From a virus: a DNA stretch of 64,000 nucleotides. A program made the translations under genes and the position numbers. Below are positions 1-64,000 of this stretch, in pieces. The notes beneath the pieces were generated by a model that did no database searches, was not told the DNA's origin, and saw nothing but the letters and a program-made list of their open reading frames with translations. Numbering within the stretch: the stretch's first letter is position 1; the number at the start of each line of letters is the position of its first letter. The DNA lies in the IMG/VR virus record IMGVR_UViG_3300045988_132576, positions 62,908 through 126,907 of that record. One strand, 5' to 3'.

Positions 1-495
1 GATAATGGAGAACCCTCTAATAAGTCTGACAAAGGCGACAAAGGCGAGAATGATGACGATGATAAAAAGAAAAAGAAAAATTATTCTCTTGAAGATGTCG
101 TTGAATATACTGAACTTAAAGCTCAGTATGATGAATTACAGACTAAATTCGCGGCTCTTGAAACTGAAAATAATAGCTTGAAAGAGCAAATTGCTCCACT
201 TGCTGAATTTAAAAATGCTGCTGAGAAGAAAGATAAAGAAGATATGATTGCTAAATTCTATATGCTTTCTGATGAAGATAAGGCTGATGTTGTTAAAAAT
301 ATTGATAAATATTCTCTTGATGATATTGAAGCTAAATTATCTGTTATTTGTGTTCGCAACAAGGTGAGTTTCGACCTTGACGAAAATAATAAGCCCAATG
401 GTGCTACTACTTTTAATTTGAACAATAATGGTTCAGAAGATGATGATATGCCCGCTTGGGTGAAGGCGGCTTTTGCTACCGCCAACAAAAATTAA
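1..495 (+). CDS. scaffolding protein, 5'-truncated at window edge (open from nt 1 in frame 1)
   Basis: Frame 1 is open from nt 1 (the track's TTG start at 178 is internal). The product is acidic and Lys-rich with coiled-coil character (…TELKAQYDELQTKFAALETENNSLKEQIA…). It sits immediately upstream of capsid-like genes. No in-frame TAG; TAA stop. Confidence 0.45.
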   Translation, partial: DNGEPSNKSDKGDKGENDDDDKKKKKNYSLEDVVEYTELKAQYDELQTKFAALETENNSLKEQIAPLAEFKNAAEKKDKEDMIAKFYMLSDEDKADVVKNIDKYSLDDIEAKLSVICVRNKVSFDLDENNKPNGATTFNLNNNGSEDDDMPAWVKAAFATANKN

Positions 496-512
496 TAAGG
501 AGGACATACTAA

Positions 513-1430
513 ATGTTTAAAGACTTTTTGAATAAGAATCTTCCTATTAAGTCTCAGGCAAAGTATGTTGAGTTTGGTTACGGTCAGGTCGAGCCTAATC
601 ACCTTTCCGCACAAAGAAATGCTCAAATCTATGCTCAACTTCCCGCCAATAAAGACATTGAGATTCTTGAAAACGGTCAGTTTGTAAAGTATGACTATGC
701 TGCTAATGGTAATGGTATCGGCGAAGTCAACTTTACTGGCGAAGGTGAATGGATGCTCGTTTATAACGAGATTAAGCTTTATCGTGATCATTCTGATGGC
801 AGTAAGCAGTGGGATTGCGAATTTGCTATGCTTAAGGATGACTATCAGGCTCGTGTTTATAGCCCTTATGATTGGGAGCATACCGAGGTTGAATATGGTG
901 GTCGTTTCTGGAACGGCGTTGATGATAAGGGTCAAACTTATAAATTGATCAATCAGACCGTTTCCGCTGATCAGGGTTTAAAGACTGTTACTATTGCTGG
1001 CCGTGTTTATGATGTTGATGAAACTGGCAAGTTTACTTATGATGGTAATGAATATACTCTTGATAGTAATCATCAGGTTGCTAATGTTCCTGTAAAGTAT
1101 TACTATGATAAACTTCTTACTGATGTTCCTGATATATATGAAGCAAATTGGACCAATGATCCATATCATAAGTTAGGTATCTATCATGAGAAGTTCATGG
1201 AATCTGGCACTTCTATGGTTCCTCGTGTATTTAAGACCATGATTGGTGATCTTTACACTACTAATATGATTAATGAAGAGACTCTTGCTGTTGGAGATAA
1301 ACTTTCTCCTTCTGCTGCTACAAAGGGTATTCTTAGCAAAACTGGTGACGATTCAATGATCTGGCAGGTTGTTAAAGTTTATACTATGCCTGATGGTCAA
1401 AAGGGCGTCAAGGTAATGCGTATTAAGTAA
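513..1430 (+). CDS. major capsid protein candidate (305 aa)
   Basis: Strong RBS (AAGGAGG) and position directly after the scaffold gene. The size fits a delta-domain-less HK97-fold coat protein. TAG-free, as expected for a very abundant protein. Confidence 0.4.
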   Translation: MFKDFLNKNLPIKSQAKYVEFGYGQVEPNHLSAQRNAQIYAQLPANKDIEILENGQFVKYDYAANGNGIGEVNFTGEGEWMLVYNEIKLYRDHSDGSKQWDCEFAMLKDDYQARVYSPYDWEHTEVEYGGRFWNGVDDKGQTYKLINQTVSADQGLKTVTIAGRVYDVDETGKFTYDGNEYTLDSNHQVANVPVKYYYDKLLTDVPDIYEANWTNDPYHKLGIYHEKFMESGTSMVPRVFKTMIGDLYTTNMINEETLAVGDKLSPSAATKGILSKTGDDSMIWQVVKVYTMPDGQKGVKVMRIK

Positions 1431-1447
1431 GAAAGGAGAAAAGGATA

Positions 1448-2554
1448 ATGTTAGATAAAAATAATTTAGTTGCTCTTATGAAGCAAGTTGCTAAGGCTGA
1501 TCCTTCTGCTCCTGTTGCTTATAGTTATGAGGGAAAAAATCTTAGTTATGAAGCCTTAAATGAAACTCTTCGTAATGAAATGAATGAGTTGGCTGGTACT
1601 TACGCTCTTTATCGTGAAAATAAGAATCTTATTTTCTCTATGATTGAGGAGACTCTTGATGAGGTTCTTCCTAAGAAAGTTATTCAGCAATATGATCAGT
1701 TTGCTGAGGTTAAGACTTTCGCTCAGGGTGATAAGCCTGTCTTCCGTCGTCCTCTTAATAATCGTGCTCGTGCTAAACAGTTTGTAACTCGCGTTGGTCT
1801 TGCTGGTATTTATGAAGTCTTCAAGCTCGGACCTAAAGAGAATGAAGCCTTCGAGGTACGTACTAGCGCTATCGGCGGAGCTGCTCAGATTGGCTTCGAA
1901 GAGTTCCTTGATGGTCGTGTTGATTTTGGTGAAGTAACCAAGATCATCATGGATGGTATGGATGAACTTATTTATAAAGAAGTTGCTGCTGCTCTTAGAT
2001 CTTCTATCAATCAACTTCCTCCTGCTAACCGCGTTGCGGCTGCCGGATTTGATGAAGCGGCTATGGATCGTTTGATTACTATTGCTTCTGCTTATGGTAC
2101 TCCTACTATTTATTGCACTTATGAGTTCGCTGTTAAGATGATTCCTCATGAGGCTTGGAGATATACTGAAGCTATGAAGAACGAGCTTTGGAATAATGGT
2201 CGTCTTGCTACTTACAAGGGCACTAAGGTTATTATTCTTGAGCAGGGCTTTGAAGATGAAACCAATACTCGTAAGGTTATTGATCCTGGTTATGCTTGGG
2301 TTATTCCTACGGGCGCTGATGGTAAGCCTGTAAAGATTGCTTTCGAAGGCGGCACTATTGTTGACGAGTTTAACAATTATGATCGTTCTCGTGAGATTCA
2401 GGTTTACAAGAAGGTTGGCGTAGTTTGTATGCTTGCTAATAACATCTGTGCCTATGTTGATACTTCACTTCTCGGTCAGATGTATACTTGGAATTATGAT
2501 GGAGTCACCGGTAAGGTTGTCACTTATGATGGCCGTCTTGATGGCAATGTCTAA
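1448..2554 (+). CDS. major head / capsid-associated structural protein candidate (368 aa)
   Basis: Strong RBS (AAGGAGAAAAGG). TAG-free. Followed by an intrinsic terminator. Which of the 513 and 1448 genes is the coat protein cannot be decided from sequence alone. Confidence 0.4.
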   Translation: MLDKNNLVALMKQVAKADPSAPVAYSYEGKNLSYEALNETLRNEMNELAGTYALYRENKNLIFSMIEETLDEVLPKKVIQQYDQFAEVKTFAQGDKPVFRRPLNNRARAKQFVTRVGLAGIYEVFKLGPKENEAFEVRTSAIGGAAQIGFEEFLDGRVDFGEVTKIIMDGMDELIYKEVAAALRSSINQLPPANRVAAAGFDEAAMDRLITIASAYGTPTIYCTYEFAVKMIPHEAWRYTEAMKNELWNNGRLATYKGTKVIILEQGFEDETNTRKVIDPGYAWVIPTGADGKPVKIAFEGGTIVDEFNNYDRSREIQVYKKVGVVCMLANNICAYVDTSLLGQMYTWNYDGVTGKVVTYDGRLDGNV

Positions 2555-2640: not shown

Positions 2641-3234
2641 ATGATTAATAATGAAGATATTTATAATGTAAAAAATAGAAGCACTAGCGTAGTTGTTTAT
2701 ACTATTCCTGATACTAATTTGCGTCGTGAATTTGCGCCCGGTGAAACTAAACGTATTCCATTTGGTGAGTTAGAGAAGTTAACTTATCAGGCAGGCGGCC
2801 GCGAATTGATTGCTAATTTTTTACAAATTTTAGAGCCAGAAGTAACTCATACTCTTAATGTTCATACTGAACCTGAATATAATATGTCAGAGCAACAAGT
2901 TGCTGATTTAATTCTTAATGGCTCATTAGATGCTTTCTTAGATGCTCTTGATTTTGCTCCTATTGGAATTATTGACTTAATCAAGAATTTATCTGTTAGC
3001 CTTCCTATTACTGATATTAATAAGCGTAGAGCTTTGAAGGAAAAAACTGGGTTTGATGTTGATAAAGCTATTGCTAATGATATCGCTAGTAAAGAAGAAG
3101 ATACTATTGTAGAGAAAGAACCAGCAGCTAAGCGCCGTGTAGTAAGAGAAGAACCTACTACTCAAGGTCGTCGCACAAGCGGTTCTGGATATAAAGTAAT
3201 TAATAAAACCGAGGAAACTTCCTCCAAGAAATAA
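2641..3234 (+). CDS. hypothetical head protein (197 aa), TAG-free
   Basis: Track ORF. Leader GAGTAAAAGGAG. Lys/Arg-rich C-terminus. Confidence 0.5.
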   Translation: MINNEDIYNVKNRSTSVVVYTIPDTNLRREFAPGETKRIPFGELEKLTYQAGGRELIANFLQILEPEVTHTLNVHTEPEYNMSEQQVADLILNGSLDAFLDALDFAPIGIIDLIKNLSVSLPITDINKRRALKEKTGFDVDKAIANDIASKEEDTIVEKEPAAKRRVVREEPTTQGRRTSGSGYKVINKTEETSSKK

Positions 3235-3253: not shown

Positions 3254-3676
3254 GTGGGAACATTATTCTCAGCTGTTTATAATCGCTTTCTAAACAAGGT
3301 TACTGATGACATGTATCTGGAGTTGACTCCTGAAGATACTTTAAGAGATTTATAGAATCTTATAATAGATGCTATTCCTGGATTTGAATTTCCGCGAAAA
3401 AATCTTTTAGATTATAATTTAGATGTTGCTACTATTAATGAATCTGATGCTATGCCGGATGATTTTATTGTAGGAACGGTATGGGGAGAACTTCCAGAAC
3501 CGGGTGAAGAACCTCAAGTTTTAGTTGATAGATCTAGTTTTAATTGTGATCTAACTGAAGAAGAAATTAATATTTTAGCTATTTTAATGATGTGCGGTTG
3601 GACGCAAAGGCAAGTCACTTCAATTGAGAATACTCGAATGAAATATAGTGGCTCTGATTTTAAATTTACTTCTTAG
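3254..3676 (+). CDS. head-tail connector / head completion protein candidate (GTG start, one in-frame TAG)
   Basis: RBS AGGAGGG 7 nt before GTG. It is in the same frame as track ORF 3452..3676 and joined to it across one TAG. Position between head and tail genes. Confidence 0.4.
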
Positions 3677-3782
3677 GCAAATCATCTATCAAAGCTGTTA
3701 AGTTTGTTAAGTGAATGCCAAAGACAATCTCACCATATGTAGCGTTTATATAAACGCAGACGTCTAAATGACAAAGGTGAGT

Positions 3783-4124
3783 ATGAATCTAATTGGGATG
3801 TGTTTAAAAGTCGATATGATTACTAAATATAATTTTGATATTCCAATAGAGAGTATAAAGGTAAATTGTTTGCGCTTAACCAATCAATTATGGAAATTAA
3901 TTCCAATGCGCGAAAATAATGAAGATTGGCATAAATAGCTAGAAACTGTTATAAATGAAATTGTGGGGTTTAGTGTGATTTTTAACGCTGAACCCCTTTA
4001 TTTATAGTTATTAAATAAACTTGAGGGATTGTAGAATCGAGATACTGATTTTAATTTTTATCGTAAGACTGTATTTGAAACGATCAGTCTTTTATAGGAG
4101 ATAAATTATGGCGTCAGGGTTTGA
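3783..4124 (+). CDS. hypothetical small protein (recoded, 4 in-frame TAG); uncertain
   Basis: 113-codon frame open under TAG=sense, weak SD AAGGTGAG. A strong GC hairpin lies inside it, so it may instead be non-coding. Confidence 0.25.
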
Positions 4125-5172
4125 TTATAGTAGTAAGCAACCTTTTAGATTATAGCAAGGTCGCTTAGGAATTTATGATAAACCACCCTTTGAAGGTAGC
4201 CCTGTTGAAGGCGTTAATTATATGGCGGTTCGGCTCGGTCAAATGGGCGGAAACCGCCAACAAGAGCGTATGATTTTATCTAAGCGCAGAAGCTTGGATA
4301 GAGCAGTATGGAATTCATATCAAGCCGCAGAAATTATTAAATAGGATGCGGAATATAAAAAACCTATTAGGTGTTTAATTAATCCCAATAAATTAAAATA
4401 GGATTATGATGACAAGATTTTGTCTGTTGGAAATGAGTATTAGTTTAAACCGGGAGATATCTTTGAATGGTGCGGAACTAATACCTATTGGATTTGTTAT
4501 CTTTAGGATTTAACTGAATTGGCTTATTTTAGAGGAGATATTAGAAAATGCTCTTATAAAATAAATTGGGTAGATAATGGAGAGAAAAAATCTACTTATG
4601 CAGCAATCCGCGGTCCGGTAGAAACGAAAATTAATTATATTTAGAAACATGAAATTAGTGTAGATAATCCTAATTATTCATTAAATATTTTAATGCCAAA
4701 AAATAAAGATACTTTAAGTTATTTTAGGCGTTATACTAAATTTTATTTAGATGGTTAGGATGAGGGAGACAATTTAATTTGTTGGCGTGTTGAAGCTGTA
4801 GATTCAATAAGTATGCCAGGTATTTTAGAAGTTAATGCGACTGAATATTATATTAATGAGTAGGAAGATAATTTAGATAATAAGACTGTTGGTTCTTTAA
4901 TTGCGGAACCAATTGATCCAAATCCTACGACAACTGATATTATAGGGGAAACATTTATTTTCCCAAAGAAAACTTATACTTATTATTTTGATGGTGAAGT
5001 TGTTCTAGAATGGAAAATAAAGAATAATAAAAAGTTGCCAGTTTCTTTAAAAGTTATTAAAGAAGCAAAAAAGCCAACAGTTGAAATAAGTTGGACTTCT
5101 GGATATAGTGGATAGTTCGATTTATGTTATGGAGATTATAAGAAAACGATTGTAGTTCAATCATTGTTTTAA
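4108..5172 (+). CDS. hypothetical structural protein (354 aa, about 12 in-frame TAG)
   Basis: RBS AGGAG 8 nt before ATG. 355 codons with no TAA/TGA but many TAG. Invisible in the standard-code track. Confidence 0.55.
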
Positions 5173-5187
5173 GGAGTAAAAGGTGTT

Positions 5188-5769
5188 ATGAAAATTAATG
5201 GTGTAAATTTACCTAAATCAAGTTTTCTTTCTGTTGAAAAAGATTTAGAAATTATTGTAAGACATCTCTGTAAAAATGAGAGATTAAAGCGATTATTGTA
5301 TTATACAACAAAAGATGCTATTGATAAGCCAGATCTAAATGATGAACAAATGATTCAATTATTTAATAAAAATATTAAATTAATTCCTAAGCTTTATGTT
5401 GATGGAAGTGTATTAAATTATTTAATTATTAATTTTGATAATTTTACACAAAGTGGAAATCCTGAGTTTAGAGACAATATTATTGAATTCGATATTATTT
5501 GTCATTTTGATCAATGGCATTTAAAAGATTACCAATTGCGCCCTTATCGTATTGCCGCAGAAATTGATAGCATGATAGATAAAACGCATTTAACCGGTAT
5601 TGGTAAGTTAGAATTTCTTGGAGCAAATCAAATTATTTTAACTGATGAATATGCGGGTTTGTGTCTTATGTATCAGGCAGTTCATGGTGAAGAAGATAAA
5701 AAATCTATGCCAAATCCTAATGACGAGGAAAGATTTATAGAAGATTTTAAAAAAAGAACTGAAGAGTAA
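5188..5769 (+). CDS. hypothetical neck/tail-completion protein (193 aa), TAG-free
   Basis: Track ORF. Leader GGAGTAAAAGGTG. Confidence 0.55.
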   Translation: MKINGVNLPKSSFLSVEKDLEIIVRHLCKNERLKRLLYYTTKDAIDKPDLNDEQMIQLFNKNIKLIPKLYVDGSVLNYLIINFDNFTQSGNPEFRDNIIEFDIICHFDQWHLKDYQLRPYRIAAEIDSMIDKTHLTGIGKLEFLGANQIILTDEYAGLCLMYQAVHGEEDKKSMPNPNDEERFIEDFKKRTEE

Positions 5770-6494
5770 TGGATATCAGACTTGGATTAATGACAGGTAT
5801 TGATTTACCAATACCTGAATTAGAAGTCACTATTCATTAGCCATCTATAAAAGAAATTTCTTTTATAGGTGAAAAAGATCTTTTCTTGGGGATTTAGTGT
5901 TTATGTATTGATAAAAACATAATAGAGAATTCGGGCGAAAGTCTTTTAAGAGAAACAAATAATTTTTAGATATTTATGACAATGATGAAAGAAAAAGAGA
6001 TGGCCGATAAAAAACAAGCATCTATGTAGGTTCTTACATTATTGTTTCCAAAGCAAAATGTTTTATTTACCCCTAGGTCAATTGTTTTACAAGGTGACCC
6101 ACAAATAATGATTGACGAAAGCAATTTTAATATATTATAGGAATATATTAAAGAAATATTTTGTTTTAAATCTAATGCTTCGCAAGAAATGGGATTTAAT
6201 CCTGGAAGTGCGGCCGCGAAAAAGATAGCCGATAAATTAATGCGAGGTAGACAACGTGTCGCTGAATTAAACGGCACGGCTAATGCTAGTATATTTAGTT
6301 AGTATCTTTCAATGCTTACTATAGGTCTTGATTCAATGTCTTTACAGGATTTAATGGATTTAACAATGTTCCAACTCTATGACCTTGTTGAAAGATATCA
6401 ACTTTATATTAATTGGGATATTGATATCCGGTCTAGATTAGCAGGCGCAAAGCCTGATAATAAGCCGGATAACTGGATGAAAAATATCCATTAA
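5769..6494 (+). CDS. hypothetical tail-region protein (241 aa, 7 in-frame TAG)
   Basis: ATG overlaps the TAA of the previous gene (TAATG). It is in frame with track ORF 6312..6494 and ends at TAA. Confidence 0.55.
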
Positions 6495-7690: not shown

Positions 7691-7695
7691 TTAAT

Positions 7696-7730
7696 GGGAG
7701 AGAATAAAAATATTCTCTCCCATTTTTTTG
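7696..7730 (+). terminator. rho-independent terminator
   Basis: GGGAGAGAATA aaaa TATTCTCTCCC followed by a run of seven T. Confidence 0.7.
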
Positions 7731-50205: not shown

Positions 50206-50286
50206 TGTTATATAATCTCCTATCTATTTCATAGAAAAATTATATCACAAATTTTCTTTTTTGTCAAGTTTTAAATTAATAATATT

Positions 50287-54656: not shown

Positions 54657-57600
54657 CTTTTAAAACTAAATCGCCATTGGATAAAATTTCATCAATTTTA
54701 TATAATTGATGTCCTCCAGAAGAAGCATATTTTTTTGACATAAAATTATCTCCATTACGAATTCCAGAGACTACAATCATATTTCCGCGGTTAAACCAAG
54801 ATTTTTCAACAATATGTTTGGTTCCATCTGCACCACGCTCTGAAATTTGTTTATCAAATAAACTAAAATATTCTTTTCTAAACTTTACTTCTACAGGACC
54901 AGTAGTAGTAAGGATAGTTACAGTGCTTTTAGTTTTATTTTTTGCTATACAAGTTCCGCAAATTTTAAACAATTTATAAATATGAATAGTATGATTTCCT
55001 TTAGTAAAACTTCTATCAATTATTGGATCTTCTGGAAGCTTAAAGAAATCTACAAATCCGTATTTATCATTGTTAATATTATTCAATTCATGGGTATGGT
55101 AATAATAACAAAGGACTTCCATTTCCCAAGCAGATAAATTATTTTTATTAGCATATTTATCCCAATCATCTTTAAATATTTTCATATTTAGATTATCCAA
55201 AATTTCATCTTTGTTATTAGCAATCCAAGCGCGAAATACATCCATCCACTTTTGGTATATACTATTCCAAATATTTTCACTTAAATAATAATTGGTGCCA
55301 TCAAATTGAATATTATTATCTTCTCCAATTTCTACTAAAAAATTAATTGCTCGTTCATCAAGTTGATATAAACTGTTATTTTTCGCAGTTTTACAAATTG
55401 CTTTTAAATATCTGTTAAATTCATAAATACGGCGAGCCATAATTTGATTTTCATTTTCTTCTGGAAGAAGATCATACTTCATAAGTCCGCCCATATTTTG
55501 AAGAGTAATTCTTTTCTTTTTATCGCAAGTTTCCCAAATATACCAAACCATTAATTCTTTTCTATCCATCATATTATCAAAAGCTCCGCCTTTAATAAGA
55601 GAAATCATAGCTTGTTTACCTGGCTTAATACGGTATAAAAATTCTTTAGGATTTGAATAAGGACGATTAGCAATGATTGTATTAACTAATTCATCACCAA
55701 CATTCAACATACCTTTTAATCCAAAAAGGATTTTATTATTTTCAATATCAGGAGCAAATCCAAATTTAGATTTGTTAATATCAGGAAGGCCTACTTCAAT
55801 TCCTGCTTTTTGAATATCACTAATGGCTTTGGCAATTTTTCCATAGTCAGTAGCCGCAGTTTTGCGGATTTTACCACTTTTATCAGGAAGATCTTCAAAT
55901 GTTACTCCATTAGCTAAATCATCACCTTCAGGAGCATAAATATCTACAATCTCTTCTTTACTATTATCTTCAAGGGAACCACTATTAACAATTAAACAAG
56001 CAGTATCCCAATAAATAGGATTAAAATGAATTACTAAGTAAATCATTTGAATTGCTACAAATGAATAAGGAAGAGAATGATTAAGACTAAATGCATATCC
56101 TAATTGAGGAGCAACTGCGATTTCCCAAAAGTATTCAGCAGATTTCTCATTATCAAATTTACTAAATACTTGTTCTCTCAATTGTGGAATTTTAGCCATT
56201 TGTTTTTTAGCAACAATCTTACGCGCAGTATTAGCTTCACCAAGAGTAAAATGAGCTACATCCATAAGAATTTCCATCATTTGCTCTTGAATAGGACAAC
56301 ATCCATAATATTTATCACAATGTTTATGCATCTTATCAATTAATTCTTGAGGAAGATGCTGAGCCTTCATTTCATCATCAAATACTTTAATACCTGAATG
56401 TTGAATACGATAATATCTATCTTGCTGTGATTCTTTGCCTTTTTCAGACATAAGACGCATCATAGCATTAGCCGCTGTCATTTCCATAGGGTTTTGTGGT
56501 TTAAGACGTTTCGCGATCGCCAAACCAACTCCCGTAGAAAATTGGAATACATCTAATACATCACCAGCGGCAAGATGGTCCCAAATTGCTTGATCAGTTG
56601 TATCTATCACTTCTGGATGAATATATTTATTATAAAATTCTCGTAAAGATAATTCTGGAATCTGCTTATCTTTTAGAAGTAATTGATAACAAGTAATAAT
56701 TTTGTCAGAAGCTTCAGTTACAAGGAAATCATATTTTGTGTCTCCAGCGGCTTCCGCTTTATGAAGATCCCAACAAGTAATCATATCTCCACTAGGAGTT
56801 CTCATAAATGATGCGGTATCAAATGGGTCGTCGCCATATAAGATAACACCAGAAGCATGAGAAGAACGTTTATTAACCATTCCTTCAATATATACAATGA
56901 TATCCAAAAGACCAGGATATTGATTTACTTCTCGAATAAACGCTTGAACGGGTTTACGATCTTTTTCCTCATTACCATAAATAACATCATGGATAGGCCA
57001 TAAAAATCCACGCTCTTGAGGAATTAACGAAGACATGTATTGAGCATTATCAACATCAATTCCTTCTGGAAATTCTTCACTTCTATACCCACGGCAAGCG
57101 GTTAAAATACTTTGTTTAGTGCCTTCAGTTCCGAATGTAGCAACTTGAACTAGACCTAATTCTCCACGTTCTTTTCTAATTGCTTCAAAAATCGCGGGAC
57201 GTTTACTTGGGGCAAGGTCAATATCAATATCAGGTAATTCCGCGCGCTCCTTATTTAAAAATCTCCAATAAGGAAGTCCCCAACGAATTGGATCTAATTG
57301 AGTAATACCTAAAAGATAATTAGATAAAAAGCCAGTTGCAGAACCTCGCCCGGGGCCTACGATACTTCCACATTCCCAAAATAAATTAATATAATGTTGG
57401 AAAGTATTAAAATAAGCAAAAAGACAGTCATCTAATTTTTCGCCAATATCTTTTATGATATCAGCTTCAATTTCAAGTCGCTCTAAATAATTTTTATTAT
57501 CATAAAGTTGCTTTTCTTGTAAAGCTTTAATACATTCATTTACCCAATATCGTTCTTGAATATTGTCGCTATCAATTAAAGAACAGATAATTGGATATTT

Positions 57601-58632
57601 ATCAAACCAATTTGAAGGAATGAATCCTTTCTTATAATCCTTTACTTCAACTTTTGGAATAATTTGTTTTCTTTCTAATGAATAAAAAGAAATTTTATTT
57701 TGAATCTCTTGAGTGTTATCAAGAATCCAATTTATCAATTCTTTCCCTGTTTTATTATCTTTATCCCAATCATTAGCATAAGGTTCCATTAATTCAAAAA
57801 TTTCATCACTTGTCATTAAGTAAGTAAATTTATAAAAATCATCAACCTCTCTTTCTCCTGGTTTAGAAGTAAGATATGCTTTATGAATGGGTCTATCTTC
57901 TTTAGTTAAATAATGTGCATCTGTTCCAACTACCATTTTTAAATCAAATGCTTTGGCGATTTGATAAATTTTATGATTTACAATTATTTGCTCAGCATCA
58001 GTAGATGGCGCACATTCAAGATAAAAATCATCTTTTCCAAATACTTTAATACAAAAATTGATATAATCAATTATTTGATTATAATATTTATTTTGAGTTT
58101 CAATATCTTTATTTAATTCTGCTTGGAACATTGGTAAAATACAGCTACCAAGTTCTCCACCAATACAAGCAGTTGTTGCTATAACATGTCCTTTATATTG
58201 TTCCATTACCATTTCAAGTTCACTTTTTAAAGTAGGAACTCGTTCCATACGTCTATCAACATAACTATGAATCCAAGCAATAGAACTTAATTCTCTTAAT
58301 GCTTTATGTCCGATGGCATCTTTAGCAATAAGAATAAAGTGATAATATTTTTGTCCATTATCTCTTGTATCAGTAAGATAGATTTCATTGCCAAGAGCAA
58401 TGGTAAAATCAGGATTTTCTTCTCTTAATTTTTTTGCATATTGGTTTACTTCCATGTGCGCAGAAAGACATTCATGGTCTGTAATAGTTATTCCTGATAG
58501 CCCTAACTCTATTGCTTTATCAATAAGAGCTTGTGGTCTATTAATACAATCTAATAGACGTAAATTTGAATACATTGTATGATTGTGAATCCCGAAATAT
58601 GATCTCATTCGCACATTCCTTTCATCTTTCAT
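54619..58632 (-). CDS. dnaE: DNA polymerase III alpha subunit (PHP domain), 1337 aa, TAG-free
   Basis: N-terminus …FGIHNHTMYSNLRLLD…GITITDHE… (PHP domain). Continuous standard-code ORF. Confidence 0.8.
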   Translation of the reverse strand: MKDERNVRMRSYFGIHNHTMYSNLRLLDCINRPQALIDKAIELGLSGITITDHECLSAHMEVNQYAKKLREENPDFTIALGNEIYLTDTRDNGQKYYHFILIAKDAIGHKALRELSSIAWIHSYVDRRMERVPTLKSELEMVMEQYKGHVIATTACIGGELGSCILPMFQAELNKDIETQNKYYNQIIDYINFCIKVFGKDDFYLECAPSTDAEQIIVNHKIYQIAKAFDLKMVVGTDAHYLTKEDRPIHKAYLTSKPGEREVDDFYKFTYLMTSDEIFELMEPYANDWDKDNKTGKELINWILDNTQEIQNKISFYSLERKQIIPKVEVKDYKKGFIPSNWFDKYPIICSLIDSDNIQERYWVNECIKALQEKQLYDNKNYLERLEIEADIIKDIGEKLDDCLFAYFNTFQHYINLFWECGSIVGPGRGSATGFLSNYLLGITQLDPIRWGLPYWRFLNKERAELPDIDIDLAPSKRPAIFEAIRKERGELGLVQVATFGTEGTKQSILTACRGYRSEEFPEGIDVDNAQYMSSLIPQERGFLWPIHDVIYGNEEKDRKPVQAFIREVNQYPGLLDIIVYIEGMVNKRSSHASGVILYGDDPFDTASFMRTPSGDMITCWDLHKAEAAGDTKYDFLVTEASDKIITCYQLLLKDKQIPELSLREFYNKYIHPEVIDTTDQAIWDHLAAGDVLDVFQFSTGVGLAIAKRLKPQNPMEMTAANAMMRLMSEKGKESQQDRYYRIQHSGIKVFDDEMKAQHLPQELIDKMHKHCDKYYGCCPIQEQMMEILMDVAHFTLGEANTARKIVAKKQMAKIPQLREQVFSKFDNEKSAEYFWEIAVAPQLGYAFSLNHSLPYSFVAIQMIYLVIHFNPIYWDTACLIVNSGSLEDNSKEEIVDIYAPEGDDLANGVTFEDLPDKSGKIRKTAATDYGKIAKAISDIQKAGIEVGLPDINKSKFGFAPDIENNKILFGLKGMLNVGDELVNTIIANRPYSNPKEFLYRIKPGKQAMISLIKGGAFDNMMDRKELMVWYIWETCDKKKRITLQNMGGLMKYDLLPEENENQIMARRIYEFNRYLKAICKTAKNNSLYQLDERAINFLVEIGEDNNIQFDGTNYYLSENIWNSIYQKWMDVFRAWIANNKDEILDNLNMKIFKDDWDKYANKNNLSAWEMEVLCYYYHTHELNNINNDKYGFVDFFKLPEDPIIDRSFTKGNHTIHIYKLFKICGTCIAKNKTKSTVTILTTTGPVEVKFRKEYFSLFDKQISERGADGTKHIVEKSWFNRGNMIVVSGIRNGDNFMSKKYASSGGHQLYKIDEILSNGDLVLKDARYQGGIEEDV

Positions 58633-59552: not shown

Positions 59553-60752
59553 TTACTTCCTTATAATTACTAATTTATCACTGGCTCTAGTAGCCATAGT
59601 ATATAAATATTTTTTATGTTCTTCTCGATCAAAAGGATGATTTTCTTCAAATCCCAATACTTTTCCATACTCGCTACCTTGCGCTTTCCAACAGGTAATA
59701 GCATAAGCGTAGGAGAAATCAAATGGAGGATCGAGACATTGTTTATTATTTCTTAATTGATAACATTGACTGCCCGTAAGAGTTCCTTCACCAGTGATAA
59801 GTTGTTTATAATCAATTGGAGTTCCACAAAATTTATCTCCATCGCTTAAAACAATTTGGGTAAACATATAAGTAATAGGAACTTCTGAAATATAATAAGG
59901 GACTCGAATGTCTTCAGTATAAAAATCTTCAATAGTTCCAACAGTGCCATTAGTTAAAGCCCATACTCGGTTCTCAGACATAAAATCCCAGTTATTATGT
60001 AATCCAATAATTTTATCTCCAATTTGAGGGACATTAGGATCAAATCCTTTTCTTAATCGGACTACATTATTAATTTTAGTTCTTGTGGCATTTTTAGCAC
60101 AAATAATCTAATCCGCCCAATCATACATCTCAGGTATAACTTGACTTTTATCATATACTCTTACTTGTTTCCCTTCTGGACGATAAGAAATTAAAGATTT
60201 ACCCTCTCTAATCCACATTGAAAAACGAATAATCTCACTATCTTGCGCTTGGCGCATAATTTCATCAAGGAAGATATGCGGTTTATCTAATACATGATTA
60301 TTTTCATTAGGATCTACAGGAGGCAGCTGGCCAGGGTCGCCCGCCGCGATAATATAAATGCCATGAGTTAGCATTAAATCCCATAATTTTTTAGGAAGCA
60401 TTGATATTTCATCGACAACAATTACTTTATATTGCGCTAATTCACTATTATCTTTTGGAAAGAATTTAAAAGTTCCATTAGCCATCATTTTAGCTTTATA
60501 TAGGAGTTTATGCGCAGTTGTCGCATTTGGACAGCCTTTTTGTTGAAGCACAGTCGCAGCTTTACCTGTAAATGCCACATAACAAACTTCTTCTTCTGGA
60601 TCGACATCAAGAGCAGAAATAATAAATTTAATCAAAGTGCTTTTTCCACTTCCCGCGTATCCCGCTATACAAGTCCAACGTTTATGAGCATAATAGCGCT
60701 CAACCGCAATTTTCAATCCTTCTTCTTGTTTACGAGTTAATTCCATTTTCAC
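59553..60752 (-). CDS. Dda/RecD-like SF1 DNA helicase (399 aa, GTG start, one in-frame TAG)
   Basis: Track ORFs 60108..60752 (Walker A GYAGSGKST, DEISM) and 59553..59981 (…WKAQGSEYG…TRASDKL…) are in the same frame, joined by one TAG. Confidence 0.7.
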
Positions 60753-62084: not shown

Positions 62085-62131
62085 ATAAATAAAAATAATG
62101 GCTATATGAAGAAATAAATCTTCATATAGCC
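62085..62131 (-). terminator. rho-independent terminator after the lysozyme gene
   Basis: GGCTATATGAAG aaataaat CTTCATATAGCC. A U-run follows on the minus strand. Confidence 0.65.
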
Positions 62132-62137
62132 GTAAAA

Positions 62138-62977
62138 TTAATTAGTAAAATAATTATAAGCAGTGGTCGCATTCTTTTGTCTTTGATTTAAAGAACTTGA
62201 TCCACAACGCTCGTAACATTTTGCAAAAGCTTTAGCAACTTCTTTTTCATCATTTAAATTTAAAAAAGAATTAAAATTAAATCCTCTTTTATATGAAGAA
62301 CCAAAAGTATTAAATTCGTATTCAATAGTATTTATTAAGAATTCGCATTGTGTGTCTAAATCAGAATACCAAACACTTGAATACCCTTTACTCCATTGAC
62401 AAATTCCATAATAATATTTGTTAGAGGCAGTTGGCTGTAAAGATAAAGTATGACCGCCGCATTCTGCCATCATATTACCCAAAATACCTGCGCAAACCGC
62501 GTCATTCCATCCTTGGTCTTTCATATAAAGCCAAATTTCTGTTGCTACTGGATAAGTAGATAATTTATCATTCCATTGAGAATTAATTTTATCTAAACGA
62601 TTCTGATAAATTTCCAAATATTCATTAGCAGTTTCATATTCTTTTTTAGCAAATTCAATAATAGGATGATTTTCATCATACCCTAATGCTCTTGTTGCTT
62701 CGGCTAAGTCATGAGCACTATTTACAATCTCTTGATACTCTTGAATTAGAGATTTAAGCTCTTTACGATTAACTGTATCATTAATTTCTCTATCCATAGG
62801 TTCCATATTAATAGTTTCTTCTGGTAAAAAATTATATACAGTTGACGGTTCAGAAGGGATGTAAGCTTCCGAAAAAGTAGTGATTTCGCTATAATTTAAA
62901 GCAAGAGCTGATGTTTGTAAAATAAAAATTAATACAAAACAAATAATACTTCCTGCTAAAATCTTATATCTTTTCAT
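62138..62977 (-). CDS. secreted lysozyme-like peptidoglycan hydrolase (signal peptide; endolysin candidate)
   Basis: N-terminal signal/anchor MKRYKILAGSIICFVLIFILQTSALA. Motif …AGILGNMMAECGG… resembles phage-lysozyme/glycosidase active-site regions. TAG-free. Confidence 0.5.
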   Translation of the reverse strand: MKRYKILAGSIICFVLIFILQTSALALNYSEITTFSEAYIPSEPSTVYNFLPEETINMEPMDREINDTVNRKELKSLIQEYQEIVNSAHDLAEATRALGYDENHPIIEFAKKEYETANEYLEIYQNRLDKINSQWNDKLSTYPVATEIWLYMKDQGWNDAVCAGILGNMMAECGGHTLSLQPTASNKYYYGICQWSKGYSSVWYSDLDTQCEFLINTIEYEFNTFGSSYKRGFNFNSFLNLNDEKEVAKAFAKCYERCGSSSLNQRQKNATTAYNYFTN

Positions 62978-63150
62978 AAATGATTTCCTCCTAATAGGTT
63001 TTTTAAGTCTATTAGTCGTAGTGTCAATTATTAAAAATAATAAGCAGCCCTATCTACAATTTCGTAATCTTCTATAATAATCTAAGGACTAATATTATTA
63101 TTCCATATATTTCGTTCGCATTTACCAACGATATTAATTGTCACATAACC

Positions 63151-64000
63151 CTATTCAGAATACAATTTCTCGTATTCCTCCTCGGACGACTTAAACTTGA
63201 TTAAACTGATGCCATCTGGCATAGTTATCTTCAAGGTAGGATTTTTATCTTTTGACATTAAAGTTAAGTTATTTGATGCAACTTTTATTCCTTCAACGGC
63301 AATAGATGCTTCTTCTACCCCTTGGCCCCAAAGTGGTTTAAGTTGAGCGATATCAATAATATCTTTTCCAACTAAATCATTAGTGTGATAAATAAAATCA
63401 ACACTATAAATTGGGGTGAAATCAAAATCTTGTAAAGCAGAATTCGCATATTCAATAAATTTATCAAAATTATCATCAATAATACCAAATCCAAAAGCGT
63501 TAGGATGTCCCTCCGCATACATAATTAGATTTGATTTTTGACAAAATTCTCTAAAGTCTTTAAGTGCGGATTTGTCGTATCCTCTGCCGGAGCCTTCCCA
63601 ACAAATTTGTTGAGTTTCTTCATCTACTGTTTTATTAAGAATTAAAACAGGACGTTGATATTTGCTCATTAATTGATTGGCCATTAGCCCAGTCAAATTT
63701 TTATCAGCAGCAAATCCATCTAACTTAATTCCTAAGATTTTATTACTTAAAAGATTTTGATTTACGATTATCTATTCAATTTTTTCCAAGCTAGTGTCTC
63801 TGATTTTAGTTTGCCTATTCTTGATATTAGTACAATTACGACAAGCTTGTTCTACTCTTGTTTCTGCTTGACCTTTACATCCACGTTTTGTTGAAGGGAC
63901 AAGTTCGTATCCCTTAAAATCAAGCATTGACTCGAATAGCATGAGCTTTTCTTCTTGCGTCCCAACACGAGTAGTTGCATTAACTAAAGGAGCAATATAG
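63151..64000 (-). CDS. RecJ-like DHH/DHHA1 exonuclease, N-terminus beyond the window edge
   Basis: DHHA1-like …YAEGHPNAFGFGI…. The frame continues upstream across one TAG to the window edge. Confidence 0.55.

What the first reader, a model, noticed from the sequence alone, without database searches (positions are those of the whole stretch)
1..64000. Bimodal TAG usage: essential early enzymes and the most abundant virion proteins are TAG-free, while tape measure, baseplate and fiber genes are saturated with TAG
DnaE (1337 codons), dut, the Gmk-like kinase, three small nucleotide-metabolism operon genes, the scaffold, both capsid candidates, the major tail candidate, genes 2641, 5188 and 7508, and one fiber gene (29959..31620) contain zero TAG. 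By contrast the tape measure carries many tens, gene 17874 about 30 and gene 7755 about 20. Helicase, NrdD, RuvC and the LytTR regulator carry only 1 to 3 each. This pattern fits a program in which suppression is weak or absent early and strong late. It also fits selection for translation efficiency in the highest-copy proteins. The result is a mosaic of standard-code-compatible and recoded genes within one genome.
Basis: seen in the sequence. Interest (0 to 1): 0.8.

Follow-up and report, generated by a model that had tools for sequence, protein, structure and literature searches.

The report
Uneven amber-codon use in recoded phage
This is part of a roughly 197-kb phage that reads the stop codon TAG as glutamine yet keeps TAG out of its capsid, tail-tube and DNA-polymerase genes; the pattern is real and conserved, but it is a variation on the mixed-code layout already published for recoded phages.

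Summary
The window is a 30% GC phage fragment that uses TAG as a glutamine codon (code 15). I called 56 genes. They hold 248 in-frame TAG, 525 CAA and 73 CAG. TAG use stays strongly uneven after normalising to glutamine codons (chi2 159, 55 df; Monte-Carlo p<5e-5). Robustly TAG-poor genes are DnaE (0/50), the capsid-like g02/g03 and tail-tube-like g10 (0/34 together), and a secreted lysozyme-like gene. In 25 of 25 diverged recoded lineages, g02/g03/g10 keep about 1% TAG while their neighbours have 35-53%.

These three genes show fast CAA/CAG turnover and a strong translational-selection codon signature, so TAG is selected against there rather than simply absent. DnaE has no such bias; its depletion fits the published model in which replication genes stay standard-code.

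Several sub-claims fail. Bimodality is not demonstrated. "Saturated" overstates the case, because CAA is still the commonest glutamine codon in the tape measure. The "scaffold" is a truncated gene whose missing part carries TAG in the closest relative. Several cited TAG-free genes have only 1-3 glutamine codons. TAG-free and TAG-containing genes are interleaved in the same predicted operons.

An amber-suppressor tRNA is present in the closest relatives, outside the window. The phenomenon is already known (Borges, Yutin, Devoto, Babkin).

The parts
1..495 (+). g01: C-terminal 164 aa of a 525-aa acidic coiled-coil head protein (phrog_3313, scaffold-like). This window part has 0 TAG.
   Evidence: the full gene in closest relative L008 (7471-9048) has 3 TAG among 12 Gln codons..
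513..1430 (+). g02: capsid-module protein of unknown fold. TAG-free (0/14) and strongly codon-biased.
   Evidence: Recoded relatives have TAG/Gln 0.011-0.013.
1448..2554 (+). g03: probable HK97-type major capsid protein. TAG-free (0/11) and strongly codon-biased.
   Evidence: NCBIfam capsid_Caudo_2 hit at E=4e-4, below the curated cutoff. 50% identical to a Phass-1 protein. Relatives TAG/Gln 0.011-0.014. The AF2 model was unusable.
2641..3234 (+). g04: small head-module protein. TAG-free (0/5); low TAG in relatives.
   Evidence: Relatives 0.047-0.086.
3254..6494 (+). g05-g09: head-tail connector-like genes with no strong terminator separating them from g01-g04 or g10. They carry 3, 4, 9, 0 and 6 TAG. 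The TAG-free state of g08 (5188-5769) is not conserved.
   Evidence: Relatives TAG/Gln 0.35-0.53, including g08 at 0.36-0.41. Terminator scan.
6519..7502 (+). g10: probable major tail (tube) protein. TAG-free (0/9) and codon-biased. It is followed by g11 (7508-7690, 0 TAG) and a strong terminator.
   Evidence: phrog_2729 virion structural protein, E=4e-55. Weak PDB tail-tube hits, E=0.1. Relatives TAG/Gln 0.009-0.012.
7693..7724 (.). Bidirectional intrinsic terminator after g10-g11.
   Evidence: 14-bp stem followed by a T run.
7755..8780 (+). g12: TTG start with a perfect SD. It has the highest TAG share among larger genes (14 of 22 Gln codons).
9500..17758 (+). g14: tape measure protein, 2752 aa, with 80 TAG, 99 CAA and 11 CAG. 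It is flanked by terminators at 9420-9455 and 17763-17791.
   Evidence: Pfam PhageMin_Tail, E=2e-27..
17874..21272 (+). g15: large tail protein, function not identified. 24 TAG of 41 Gln codons.
   Evidence: Relatives 0.576. No family hit.
21477..29944 (+). g17-g21: tail/baseplate-region genes with intermediate TAG use (9, 8, 1, 10 and 2 TAG; 20-43% of Gln codons).
   Evidence: g18 hits the phrog_1887 tail protein family.
29959..31620 (+). g22: fibre-like gene. TAG-free here (0/17) and TAG-poor but not TAG-free in relatives.
   Evidence: p=0.005, uncorrected. Relatives carry 0-3 TAG, 0.083 overall. No codon bias.
31739..39487 (+). g23: 2582-aa protein with 26 TAG of 82 Gln codons.
43693..44409 (-). 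g29: response-regulator/LytTR-like gene with 1 TAG.
   Evidence: Pfam Response_reg, E=1e-8, and LytTR, E=1e-3..
48099..48542 (-). g37: RuvC-like gene (weak assignment). 3 TAG of 8 Gln codons. It lies in the operon behind the consensus promoter.
   Evidence: E=7e-3.. Relatives 0.40.
48645..49671 (-). g38 dUTPase plus two small genes (g39, g40). All are TAG-free but hold only 3, 1 and 1 Gln codons.
   Evidence: Pfam dUTPase.. Relatives 0-0.06.
50239..50267 (-). Perfect sigma-70-type promoter (TTGACA-17-TATAAT with TG) upstream of g41-g36.
51754..53976 (-). g45: NrdD (anaerobic RNR) with a TTG start. 3 TAG of 26 Gln codons, at residues 456, 529 and 738.
   Evidence: Pfam NRDD, E=1e-143.. Relatives 0.067.
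54051..54656 (-). g46: guanylate-kinase-like gene. TAG-free (0/7).
   Evidence: Pfam Guanylate_kin. Relatives 0.056.
54619..58632 (-). g47: DnaE (DNA pol III alpha), 1337 aa, with 0 TAG, 47 CAA and 3 CAG. It shows no codon-adaptation signature.
   Evidence: Pfam PHP, DNA_pol3_alpha, finger and HHH_6. Binomial p=5e-8. Relatives 7/1089. Phass-1 0/59..
59553..60746 (-). g50: SF1 (RecD/Pif1-like) helicase with 1 TAG of 17 Gln codons.
   Evidence: Pfam AAA_30 and UvrD_C_2. Relatives 0.105.
62138..62977 (-). g55: Phage_lysozyme2-domain protein with a signal peptide. TAG-free (0/11).
   Evidence: Pfam, E=8e-19. 0/179 in 16 relatives. Terminator at 62131-62100.
63031..63999 (-). g56: RecJ-like exonuclease, cut by the window end. 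3 TAG of 16 Gln codons.
   Evidence: TIGR00644, E=3e-29. Relatives 0.25.

Best explanation
The window belongs to a large (about 197 kb) siphovirus-like phage of the Phass-1/Enterococcus-EF1-related clade that decodes TAG as glutamine. Its closest relatives carry an amber-suppressor tRNA(CUA) in a tRNA array about 60 kb from the window-equivalent region.

In this AT-rich genome TAG has spread as a third Gln codon wherever its cost is tolerable, reaching roughly 35-55% of Gln codons in most tail, connector, portal and terminase genes. The inferred cost is competition with host release factor 1, causing occasional premature termination. Two gene sets stay almost TAG-free for different reasons.

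1. The genes with the strongest translational selection. These are the capsid-like g02/g03 and the tail-tube-like g10, with weaker signatures in g01 and g04 (g11 is too small to judge). They are presumably needed in hundreds of copies per virion. They keep CAG/CAA and purge TAG.
2. DnaE and a few replication-module genes (dut, gmk, g49, g51-53, lysozyme-like g55). These show no codon adaptation but are still kept TAG-free. The most plausible reason is that they must be translatable while suppression is absent or weak.

What is shown: TAG means Gln; the heterogeneity; its conservation; the link to codon bias; and the presence of the suppressor tRNA in relatives. What is inferred: RF1 competition as the cost; copy numbers; expression timing.
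For: - TAG=Gln. At window TAG sites relatives carry TAG 915, CAA 813 and CAG 133, then GAA and AAA. Standard-code relatives carry CAA 398, GAA 82 and CAG 81. NrdD residue 529 is CAA/CAG across the clade.
- Heterogeneity. chi2=159, 55 df, Monte-Carlo p<5e-5.
- Conservation. In 25 of 25 clusters of recoded relatives (below 93% MCP nucleotide identity), g02+g03+g10 hold 0-3 TAG of about 25-44 Gln codons. g05-g09+TMP in the same loci hold 17-69% (35-58% in the well-sampled loci).
- Not inertia. CAA<->CAG switches make up 24-41% of Gln-Gln pairs in g02/g03/g10, against about 1% for TAG switches. The reverse holds in g05-g09: 1-8% against 25-35%.
- Codon-bias link. Spearman rho -0.82, p=0.001, across 12 genes in 20 lineages. 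Conservation gives rho -0.41, not significant.
- Recoding left the biased genes untouched. Their Gln codon mix is the same in standard-code and recoded relatives: about 45% CAA, 55% CAG and 0-2% TAG.
- DnaE. 0/50 here; 7/1089 in relatives; 1-2 of 52 in a lineage whose other replication genes are about 39% TAG; 0/59 in Phass-1. Its Gln codons are 94% CAA, so they have equilibrated with AT pressure without gaining TAG.
- Low-copy head proteins are TAG-rich in closest relative L008: portal 10/24, TerL 8/25.
- +4 context. T after sense TAG is depleted: 0.16 against 0.26 in the window (p=0.003), and 0.20 against 0.26 in 20 relatives (p=1e-4).
- Suppressor tRNA(CUA) in L225, L185 and L194 (the 96%-identical L225 being the closest relative) and in the more distant relative L168.
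Against: - No expression or proteome data exist, so 'high copy' and 'early' are inferred from gene order, weak homology and codon bias.
- Capsid and tail-tube identities rest on sub-threshold hits, and the structure models failed.
- With 80 TAG in the tape measure, per-codon termination must be very low, so the cost that purges TAG from capsid genes must be small.
- TAG avoidance in the biased genes could be a by-product of general selection for the CAG/AAG/GAG class rather than selection specifically against TAG.
- The timing part is weakened by TAG-containing replication genes interleaved with TAG-free ones in the same predicted operons.
- The suppressor tRNA was not seen in this genome itself.
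- The +4 signal is modest, and the A enrichment seen in the window did not replicate in relatives.
Confidence: 0.6

Rival explanations
1. Pure temporal code switch (the Ivanova/Borges model). Genes needed before the suppressor tRNA accumulates are standard-code compatible. Everything containing TAG is translationally locked until late. No efficiency selection is needed.
For: DnaE, dut, gmk and several small replication-module genes are TAG-free. Overall TAG share is 0.12 on the replication strand against 0.34 on the structural strand. The published model is in bioRxiv 10.1101/2021.08.26.457843 and PMC7886860. In relatives the suppressor tRNA lies on the strand of the replication module.
Against: The most clearly TAG-free block outside DnaE is made of canonical late genes: capsid-like g02/g03 and tail-tube-like g10. 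No strong terminator separates these from TAG-rich g05-g09. RecJ-like, RuvC-like, NrdD/G and helicase genes contain TAG and are interleaved with TAG-free genes, including behind a perfect sigma-70 promoter. The L090/L107 lineage has about 39% TAG in replication genes.
Confidence: 0.15
2. TAG density is an adaptive attenuator. Each sense TAG loses a small fraction of ribosomes to RF1, so the number of TAGs sets relative protein yields within co-transcribed virion operons. Proteins needed in hundreds of copies have none; the tape measure, needed in a few copies, has tens.
For: TAG share falls as the codon-bias proxy for expression rises. TMP, g12 and g15 are significantly above the genome mean. 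Portal and TerL are TAG-rich. T is depleted at +4 after TAG, which suggests RF competition matters.
Against: TAGs show no positional preference within genes (KS p=0.79), whereas an efficient attenuator would sit 5'-proximal. TAG sites turn over quickly with CAA between relatives (25-35% of Gln-Gln pairs), as expected for near-neutral drift rather than tuned counts. Most non-biased genes sit in one broad range of 20-55% regardless of likely copy number.
Confidence: 0.12
3. Evolutionary inertia. TAG-free genes are simply the most conserved ones and have not had time to acquire TAG since the code change.
For: The capsid-like g03 is the most conserved gene in the module, at 85% mean aa identity.
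Against: g02 and g10 are as diverged as TAG-rich g05 and g08 (66-69% aa identity) yet hold 1% TAG against 35-41%. Synonymous CAA<->CAG turnover in the TAG-poor genes is the highest in the module. Codon identity of MCP between lineages drops to 44-50% while TAG stays at 0. Conservation against TAG share gives rho -0.41, not significant.
Confidence: 0.03
4. Mosaic origin. TAG-free genes were recently imported by recombination from standard-code relatives or from the host.
For: Standard-code and recoded members are interleaved in the clade. Fibre genes commonly recombine, and g22 is TAG-free here but not in relatives.
Against: The nearest standard-code MCPs are only about 77% identical in nucleotides. 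TAG-poor status of g02/g03/g10 and DnaE holds in every recoded lineage and in Phass-1. DnaE has the genome's own codon usage. This could still apply to g22 alone.
Confidence: 0.07
5. Mutational strand asymmetry. C-to-T pressure on the coding strand of the rightward genes creates more CAG-to-TAG changes there than in leftward genes.
For: At four-fold sites, rightward genes are slightly more T-rich and C-poor (T 0.57, C 0.085) than leftward genes (T 0.50, C 0.10).
Against: The difference is small. It cannot explain 0/50 in DnaE against 3/8 in the RuvC-like gene on the same strand, or 0/34 in g02/g03/g10 against 22/51 in g05-g09 on the same strand.
Confidence: 0.03

Closest known systems
Alternatively coded (TAG->Gln, code 15) gut phages with a mixed-code genome layout: crAss-like, Lak, Garnet, Amethyst and Topaz (Ivanova 2014; Devoto 2018/19, bioRxiv 10.1101/356790; Yutin 2021, PMC7886860; Borges 2021/22, bioRxiv 10.1101/2021.08.26.457843; Peters 2022, PMC9523058)
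   Same: TAG is read as Gln. The genome has low GC. A suppressor tRNA(CUA) is encoded by the phage lineage. In-frame TAG is concentrated in structural genes while the replicative polymerase is standard-code compatible. Close relatives differ in code. The proposed logic is a code change during infection.
   Different: Here the capsid-like and tail-tube-like genes inside the late module are the most TAG-depleted. Borges et al. report the tail-tube family and lysis genes as preferentially TAG-enriched in crAss-like phages. The lysozyme-like g55 is TAG-free in all relatives. Replication-module genes are a gene-by-gene mixture rather than a standard-code block.
Phass-1 / proposed 'Phassvirus' group and its divergent relatives (Babkin et al. 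2023, PMC10607447; GenBank OQ749652)
   Same: The capsid-like protein is 50% identical. Both have a giant tape measure (3149 aa against 2752 aa), a DnaE plus NrdD/NrdG module, TAG->Gln and Sup-tRNA(CUA) with an identical anticodon arm. The gene-level pattern matches: MCP 0/15, DnaE 0/59, TMP 29/98.
   Different: The genome is about 197 kb against 136 kb, and the module order differs. In Phass-1 the Sup tRNAs lie next to NrdD; in this window no tRNA lies there. The window's lineage is far more abundant in metagenomes, with more than 8000 homologues. The paper lists which ORFs are interrupted but does not analyse TAG share against expression class.
Enterococcus phages EF1, EF5, VRE9 and H1 (about 134-142 kb siphoviruses, standard code)
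   Same: The capsid-like protein is 40% identical over 92% of its length. They belong to the same broad clade according to PMC10607447.
   Different: They show no stop-codon recoding (PMC10607447).
Translational selection on codon usage in highly expressed phage structural genes (general principle, from the reporter's own knowledge)
   Same: A small set of virion genes shows a distinct, conserved codon preference that marks high expression.
   Different: Here the selected-against codon is a reassigned stop codon, so the penalty is probably premature termination rather than slow decoding.
A 2026 preprint on an amber-reassigned Crassvirales genus (bioRxiv 10.64898/2026.08.21.746148)
   Same: It notes in passing that the MCP gene of one recoded crAss-like phage 'shows no alternative codon usage'.
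   Different: It is a single-genome remark without statistics or a link to codon bias, and it concerns a different phage order.

Membership tests
Code-15 (TAG->Gln) recoded Caudoviricetes | Coding density and ORF length rise sharply when TAG is treated as sense, and not for TGA or TAA in a gene-like way | tested here: met
   Stop-to-stop ORFs of at least 100 aa cover 41.8 kb (standard code), 70.3 kb (TAG sense) and 51.4 kb (TGA sense). The longest ORF rises from 1338 to 2761 codons. 95% of the window is coding with 56 genes.
Code-15 (TAG->Gln) recoded Caudoviricetes | In-frame TAG aligns with glutamine in homologues | tested here: met
   Relatives at window TAG sites carry TAG 915, CAA 813 and CAG 133, followed by GAA and AAA. 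Standard-code relatives carry CAA 398, GAA 82 and CAG 81. NrdD site 529 is Gln across the clade.
Code-15 (TAG->Gln) recoded Caudoviricetes | TAG is not used as a terminator; genes end in TAA or TGA | tested here: met
   Most of the 56 genes end in TAA and 11 end in TGA, with properly placed downstream SD and start sites. The TAG three codons before the NrdD stop is read through, as in relatives of the same length. The gene caller assumed TAG is sense, so this test is partly circular.
Code-15 (TAG->Gln) recoded Caudoviricetes | Phage-encoded suppressor tRNA with anticodon CUA | tested here: inconclusive
   There is no tRNA in the window. A 90-nt tRNA(CUA) is present in tRNA arrays of the closest relatives: contig 118370 (96% nucleotide identity), plus 126669 and 110853. 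The rest of this genome was not available.
Code-15 (TAG->Gln) recoded Caudoviricetes | Peptides with Gln at TAG positions (proteomic proof) | not testable with these tools
   This has only been shown for crAss-like phages (PMC9523058).
Borges-type early/late code partition | DNA replication machinery encoded in standard code | tested here: inconclusive
   DnaE, dut and gmk are TAG-free. RecJ-like (3), RuvC-like (3), NrdD (3), NrdG (1) and helicase (1) contain TAG. One related lineage has about 39% TAG in replication genes.
Borges-type early/late code partition | Structural and lysis genes use the alternative code, with lysis genes and tail tube preferentially | tested here: not met
   Tail, connector, TMP, portal and TerL genes use TAG. 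The capsid-like g02/g03 and tail-tube-like g10 are the most TAG-depleted genes. The lysozyme-like g55 is 0/179 in relatives. Whether g55 is the endolysin is unknown.
Phass-1-related clade (PMC10607447) | Homologous capsid-module and tail-module proteins in the same order, a giant tape measure, and DnaE plus anaerobic RNR | tested here: met
   tblastn of window proteins against OQ749652 aligns g02-g10 collinearly at 37.9-44.2 kb, with TMP, DnaE, NrdD, NrdG and RecJ also present. It does not belong to the genus itself, since there is no megablast match.
HK97-fold major capsid protein (for g03) | Significant sequence or structure match to HK97-fold MCPs | tested here: inconclusive
   NCBIfam NF042927 gives E=4e-4, 19 bits against a cutoff of 80. 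No match in the local Pfam-A copy or in PDB; homologues carry a precomputed PF27364 domain that the local copy lacks. The AF2 model has pLDDT 41.
Siphovirus tail tube protein (for g10) | Match to tail-tube families, and a position immediately upstream of the chaperones and tape measure | tested here: inconclusive
   The position fits. phrog_2729 'virion structural protein' gives E=4e-55. PDB tail-tube chains 8k98 and 9jgh match only at E=0.1. A profile search found nothing. The conserved core of the AF2 model has low confidence.

The most novel reading that the evidence does not exclude
Sense-TAG load works as a built-in translational rheostat. In a cell where host RF1 still competes with the phage suppressor tRNA, the number of TAGs per gene sets protein yield within co-transcribed operons. 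This would give virion stoichiometry (none in capsid and tube proteins, tens in the tape measure) and delayed appearance of selected replication and recombination enzymes without any transcriptional control.
Probability: 0.12. Interest if true: 0.65.

Novelty: new member of a known kind. Interest (0 to 1): 0.35.

Why it matters
Mixed use of two genetic codes within one phage genome is the main clue to why phages recode stop codons at all. This clade is very abundant in metagenomes and contains standard-code and TAG-recoded members side by side. That makes it a clean natural experiment.

The data show that the reassigned codon behaves as a slightly costly synonymous codon. It is purged exactly where translational selection is strongest, and separately from the replicative polymerase. 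This refines the prevailing 'late genes are recoded to time lysis' model and partly argues against it, because capsid, tail-tube and a lysozyme-like gene are the least recoded.

There is also a practical point. Annotation pipelines that infer code usage from capsid or polymerase marker genes would misclassify such genomes as standard-code.

Tried and rejected
- Megablast of 24 kb against GenBank phages found no match.
- Pfam, PHROGs and NCBIfam gave almost no functional names for virion genes.
- PDB sequence and profile searches for g03 and g10 found nothing significant.
- AlphaFold2 models of g03 (pLDDT 41) and g10 (pLDDT 53, with only the inserted domain confident) were too poor to search, so no fold search was run.
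- Cluster-member names for homologues were all empty or 'hypothetical'.
- The GenBank annotation of Phass-1 uses standard-code fragments and is uninformative.
- Bimodality: the two- and three-class binomial mixtures were not better than a beta-binomial.
- Positional bias of TAG within genes: none.
- TGA recoding in relatives that carry tRNA(UCA): only 2-3 in-frame TGA per about 2900 codons, so not supported.
- Promoter mapping: sigma-70-like sites are no more frequent than in shuffled sequence, so only a few strong sites are usable.
- A enrichment at +4 after TAG, seen in the window, did not replicate in relatives; only T depletion did.
- The idea that the suppressor is a mutated tRNA-Tyr reading TAG as Tyr was considered, because of its 90-nt length and shared anticodon arm. 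It was rejected because TAG sites align with CAA/CAG, not TAT/TAC.

Full report
WHAT THE WINDOW IS

The 64-kb window is 30% GC and carries no tRNA gene. With the standard code, stop-to-stop ORFs of at least 100 codons cover 41.8 kb. With TAG read as sense they cover 70.3 kb, and the longest ORF doubles to 2761 codons. Using TAA and TGA as the only stops, and choosing starts by Shine-Dalgarno motifs, I called 56 genes covering about 95% of the sequence.

- Rightward genes (1-43645 and 44653-47557) form a virion module.
  - g01 is a scaffold-like fragment.
  - g02 and g03 are capsid-module proteins.
  - g05-g09 are connector-like genes.
  - g10 is a 'virion structural protein' in the tail-tube position.
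  - The tape measure is 2752 aa (Pfam PhageMin_Tail).
  - A series of large tail proteins follows.
- Leftward genes (47592-64000) form a replication and nucleotide-metabolism module:
  - RecJ-like exonuclease.
  - A signal-peptide lysozyme-like protein.
  - An SF1 helicase.
  - DnaE (PHP, pol3-alpha, finger and HHH domains).
  - Guanylate kinase.
  - NrdD and NrdG.
  - dUTPase.
  - A weak RuvC-like protein.

There is no close match in GenBank phages. The capsid-like protein is 50% identical to one in Phage Phass-1 and 40% identical to Enterococcus phages EF1 and VRE9. This places the window in the broad clade described by Babkin et al. 2023 (PMC10607447). IMG/VR holds many relatives on contigs up to about 200 kb. 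One of them (118370, 197,006 bp, 96% nucleotide identity) has DnaE split across its ends, which fits a circular or circularly permuted genome.

TAG MEANS GLUTAMINE

At the positions where the window has in-frame TAG, 80 relatives carry TAG (915), CAA (813) and CAG (133), then GAA and AAA. This is the same substitution spectrum as at window CAA sites. The 27 relatives with no in-frame TAG at all carry CAA (398), GAA (82) and CAG (81) at those sites.

NrdD residue 529 is TAG here and CAA or CAG throughout the clade. Tyr codons are rare at TAG sites. So the unusual 90-nt suppressor tRNA, which shares its anticodon arm with the neighbouring tRNA-Tyr, is not a tyrosine suppressor.

CHECKING THE OBSERVATION

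The 56 genes hold 248 TAG, 525 CAA and 73 CAG, so TAG is 29% of Gln-family codons overall.

- The tape measure has 80 TAG. Gene 17874 has 24, not about 30. Gene 7755 has 14, not about 20.
- Helicase, NrdD, RuvC-like and LytTR genes have 1, 3, 3 and 1.
- After normalising to Gln codons the heterogeneity remains: chi2=159 on 55 df, exceeded by none of 20,000 simulations. There are 19 TAG-free genes against 9.5 expected.

Several parts of the description do not hold.

- A beta-binomial fits the window as well as or better than a two-class mixture (AIC 214.5 against 220.9). 'Bimodal' is therefore not established, although pooled estimates from relatives do pile up near zero.
- TAG is 42% of Gln codons in the tape measure and 21-59% in other tail genes, so 'saturated' overstates it.
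- dut and the small genes have 1-3 Gln codons each.
- Gene 5188 is TAG-free only in this genome; relatives have 36-41%.
- The 'scaffold' is the last 164 aa of a 525-aa gene. Its upstream part has 3 TAG in the 96%-identical relative.

THE PATTERN IS CONSERVED AND IS NOT INERTIA

I aligned every window gene codon-by-codon to 130 related loci.

- Recoded relatives pooled:
  - g01-g04, g10 and g11: 1-5% TAG.
  - DnaE: 0.6% (7/1089).
  - g55: 0/179. g49: 0/48.
  - dut and gmk: about 5%.
  - NrdD: 6.7%. Helicase: 10.5%.
  - g05-g09: 35-53%.
  - TMP: 34%. g15: 58%.
  - RuvC-like: 40%. RecJ-like: 25%.
- I clustered recoded relatives at 93% MCP nucleotide identity, which gave 25 lineages. In all 25, g02+g03+g10 have a lower TAG share than g05-g09+TMP, and usually 0 TAG. 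Codon identity to the window MCP drops as low as 44%.
- In g02, g03 and g10, 24-41% of conserved Gln positions have switched between CAA and CAG, but only about 1% involve TAG. In g05-g09 the figures are 1-8% and 25-35%.
- Gln-codon usage of the TAG-poor genes is the same in standard-code and recoded relatives, at about 45% CAA and 55% CAG. In TAG-rich genes, TAG has displaced both CAA and CAG.
- Across 12 genes in 20 lineages, TAG share does not follow protein conservation (rho -0.41, p=0.18). It follows G-ending Lys/Glu codon bias (rho -0.82, p=0.001).
- Phass-1, a distant recoded relative, shows the same gene-level pattern: MCP 0/15, DnaE 0/59, NrdD 0/29, g07 homologue 5/20, g09 homologue 6/13, TMP 29/98.

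TWO KINDS OF TAG-FREE GENE

g02, g03 and g10 have a codon signature unlike the rest of the genome.

- AAG/AAR is 0.65-0.75, against about 0.15 elsewhere.
- GAG/GAR is 0.36-0.50.
- The C-ending share is 0.21-0.29, against about 0.08.
- Four-fold sites are 73% T and 2% G.

This is what strong translational selection looks like, and it fits proteins needed in hundreds of copies. A 2752-aa tape measure implies a tail of roughly 400 nm. That estimate uses the usual rule of about 1.5 Å per residue, which is my own knowledge. In the closest relative, portal and terminase have 10/24 and 8/25 TAG.

DnaE, gmk, dut, g49, g51-53 and g55 have no such signature, so their TAG-free state needs another cause. 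DnaE's Gln codons are 94% CAA. They have therefore followed the genome's AT pressure without ever fixing TAG. In the L090/L107 lineage DnaE has 1-2 TAG of 52, while the other replication genes have 38-42 of about 105.

EXPRESSION UNITS

Only a few signals stand out.

- Strong terminators lie after g11 (7693-7724), before and after the tape measure (9420-9455 and 17763-17791), at 43647-43690 and 47541-47587 (both bidirectional), and after g55 (62131-62100, leftward strand).
- A perfect sigma-70 promoter with an extended -10 lies at 50267-50239, before g41.
- Promoter-like sites overall are no more frequent than in shuffled sequence.

Within these units TAG-free and TAG-containing genes alternate.

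- g01-g04 (0 TAG), g05-g07 (3, 4, 9), g08 (0), g09 (6) and g10-g11 (0) have no strong terminator between them.
- On the leftward strand the order is g53-g51 (0), helicase (1), g49 (0), g48 (1), DnaE (0), gmk (0), NrdD (3), g44 (3), g43 (2) and NrdG (1).
- The unit behind the consensus promoter reads g41 (1), g40, g39 and dut (0), RuvC-like (3), g36 (3).

The pattern is therefore gene-by-gene, not operon-by-operon. Any temporal effect would have to act at translation.

HOW TAG IS DECODED, AND ITS LIKELY COST

The window has no tRNA. A scan of IMG/VR with the anticodon arm of the Phass-1 suppressors (GGTCTCTAAAACC...GGTTCGA) hit three of the closest relatives plus a more distant one, L168. ARAGORN finds a 90-nt tRNA(CUA) there, inside arrays of 9-10 tRNAs in the three close relatives (five in L168). 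The array lies about 60 kb from the window-equivalent region. It is on the replication-module strand in the two contigs where orientation could be checked.

The tRNA has a U1·U72 mismatch and G73, which is Gln-like. It also has an extra arm of about 20 nt that is shared with one Phass-1 suppressor.

Sense TAG is followed by T less often than CAA/CAG is: 0.16 against 0.26 in the window (p=0.003), and 0.20 against 0.26 in 20 relatives (p=1e-4). This is the direction expected if strong four-base termination signals are avoided; that expectation comes from my recollection of E. coli work, and the effect is modest. TAG shows no positional preference within genes.

With 80 TAG in an essential protein, per-codon read-through must be very high. 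The cost per TAG must therefore be small, which is the regime in which only the most highly expressed genes would purge it.

INTERPRETATION

The best-supported account is as follows.

- TAG is a near-neutral third Gln codon in most genes of this AT-rich phage.
- It is selected against in the few genes under strong translational selection.
- It is independently excluded from DnaE and a handful of replication-module genes, plausibly because these must be made when suppression is weak.

The first half is supported by several independent sequence tests. The second half is consistent with the published model but untested here.

The rivals fared as follows.

- Inertia is contradicted.
- Recent import from standard-code relatives is contradicted, except possibly for fibre gene g22.
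- Strand-asymmetric mutation can be at most a minor contributor.
- TAG load as an adaptive stoichiometry rheostat is not excluded. It is disfavoured by the fast TAG/CAA turnover and the lack of 5' positioning.

WHAT IS KNOWN ALREADY

- Large TAG-free regions, with structural genes in TAG-using regions, were shown for Lak phages (bioRxiv 10.1101/356790).
- Yutin et al. [quoted passage not shown]
- Borges et al. generalised this to many clades. They proposed the early-standard/late-recoded model, with lysis genes and a tail-tube family preferentially recoded in crAss-like phages.
- Babkin et al. described the clade this window belongs to.
- A 2026 preprint remarks that one crAss-like MCP has no TAG.

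Two incremental points are new here. TAG share is tied quantitatively to codon adaptation within the late module. Capsid, tail-tube and a lysozyme-like gene are the least recoded, which runs against the lysis-timing emphasis of the current model.

VERDICT

- Observation: partly confirmed.
- Interpretation: partly supported.
- Novelty: low, a new member of a known kind.
- Interest: 0.35.

Noticed in passing
Relatives L001-L130 (for example L025-L039, L058-L061, L063-L064, L080, L096, L099, L100, L105, L128-L130): 27 related loci have no in-frame TAG at all, and 100 are recoded. The two states are interleaved when ranked by capsid-protein identity: relatives at 87-88% aa identity are TAG-free, while those at 90-93% and 83-89% are recoded. 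This suggests repeated code switches or recombination within one clade.
   Followed up: partly
L225 3369-3458(-), L185 7965-8054(+), L194 9078-9167(-), L168 7777-7866(+): The amber-suppressor tRNA(CUA) of the closest relatives is 90 nt long with an extra arm of about 20 nt, a U1·U72 mismatch and G73. Its anticodon arm is identical to those of the Phass-1 suppressors, and it differs by one base from the arm of the neighbouring 90-nt tRNA-Tyr(GUA). How such a tRNA is charged with Gln is unclear, especially in a host lacking GlnRS.
   Followed up: partly
L194 7726-7805(-); L099 12245-12316; L100 12269-12340; L105 22168-22239: tRNAs with anticodon UCA (potential opal suppressors) occur in one recoded relative and in three TAG-free distant relatives. 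Only 2-3 in-frame TGA per about 2900 aligned codons were seen, and TGA clearly terminates 11 genes in the window.
   Followed up: partly
window 1-495; L008 7471-9048: The first gene of the window is truncated. The full 525-aa protein (phrog_3313) in the closest relative has a globular N-terminal half with 3 TAG, followed by the acidic coiled-coil C-terminal part seen in the window.
   Followed up: yes
window 513-2554 and 6519-7502; L225 8274-9413(-): g02, g03 and g10 share an extreme codon signature: T-ending four-fold codons, and G-ending Lys, Glu and Gln codons. A 379-aa TAG-free ORF inside the tRNA array of the closest relative has the same signature (AAG/AAR 0.82). It may be another very highly expressed phage protein.
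   Followed up: partly
window 62138-62977 (-): A Phage_lysozyme2-domain protein with a typical Sec signal peptide sits in the replication module. It is followed by a strong terminator and is TAG-free in all 16 relatives (0/179). This is the opposite of the published enrichment of recoded stops in lysis genes. Whether it is the endolysin is unknown.
   Followed up: partly
window 7755, 17874, 29363, 29959 (+) and 53976 (-): Five genes, including NrdD, start with TTG preceded by perfect AGGAGG-type Shine-Dalgarno motifs. The NrdD start is confirmed by alignment to PDB 8p23 from residue 3.
   Followed up: partly
window 50239-50267 (-); 7693-7724; 43647-43690; 47541-47587: A 12/12 sigma-70 consensus promoter with an extended -10 lies upstream of g41. 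Three long bidirectional terminators mark module boundaries.
   Followed up: no
window 52390-52392 (NrdD residue 529): The TAG-encoded Gln in the motif TLAIGQIGLAE is Gln in the whole clade. It is Phe or Tyr at the equivalent position of solved NrdD structures (8p23, 9d3x), and Tyr in relative L108.
   Followed up: partly
L090, L107 (contigs 151351 and 3300026522_000023): In this lineage (DnaE 83% identical) the replication-module genes are as heavily recoded as structural genes, with 38-42 TAG of about 105 Gln codons. DnaE still has only 1-2 of 52.
   Followed up: yes
window 47237-47557 (g35) and 58658-58960 (g48): In these two small genes the only Gln codon is a TAG that is kept as TAG in nearly all relatives (25/28 and 18/19). 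Most of those relatives are close, so this may be simple inheritance. g35 has an HExxH motif.
   Followed up: no
window 43693-44409 (-): A response-regulator/LytTR-type DNA-binding protein is encoded on the opposite strand between two rightward virion blocks. It has its own pair of near-consensus promoters at 44462-44512.
   Followed up: no
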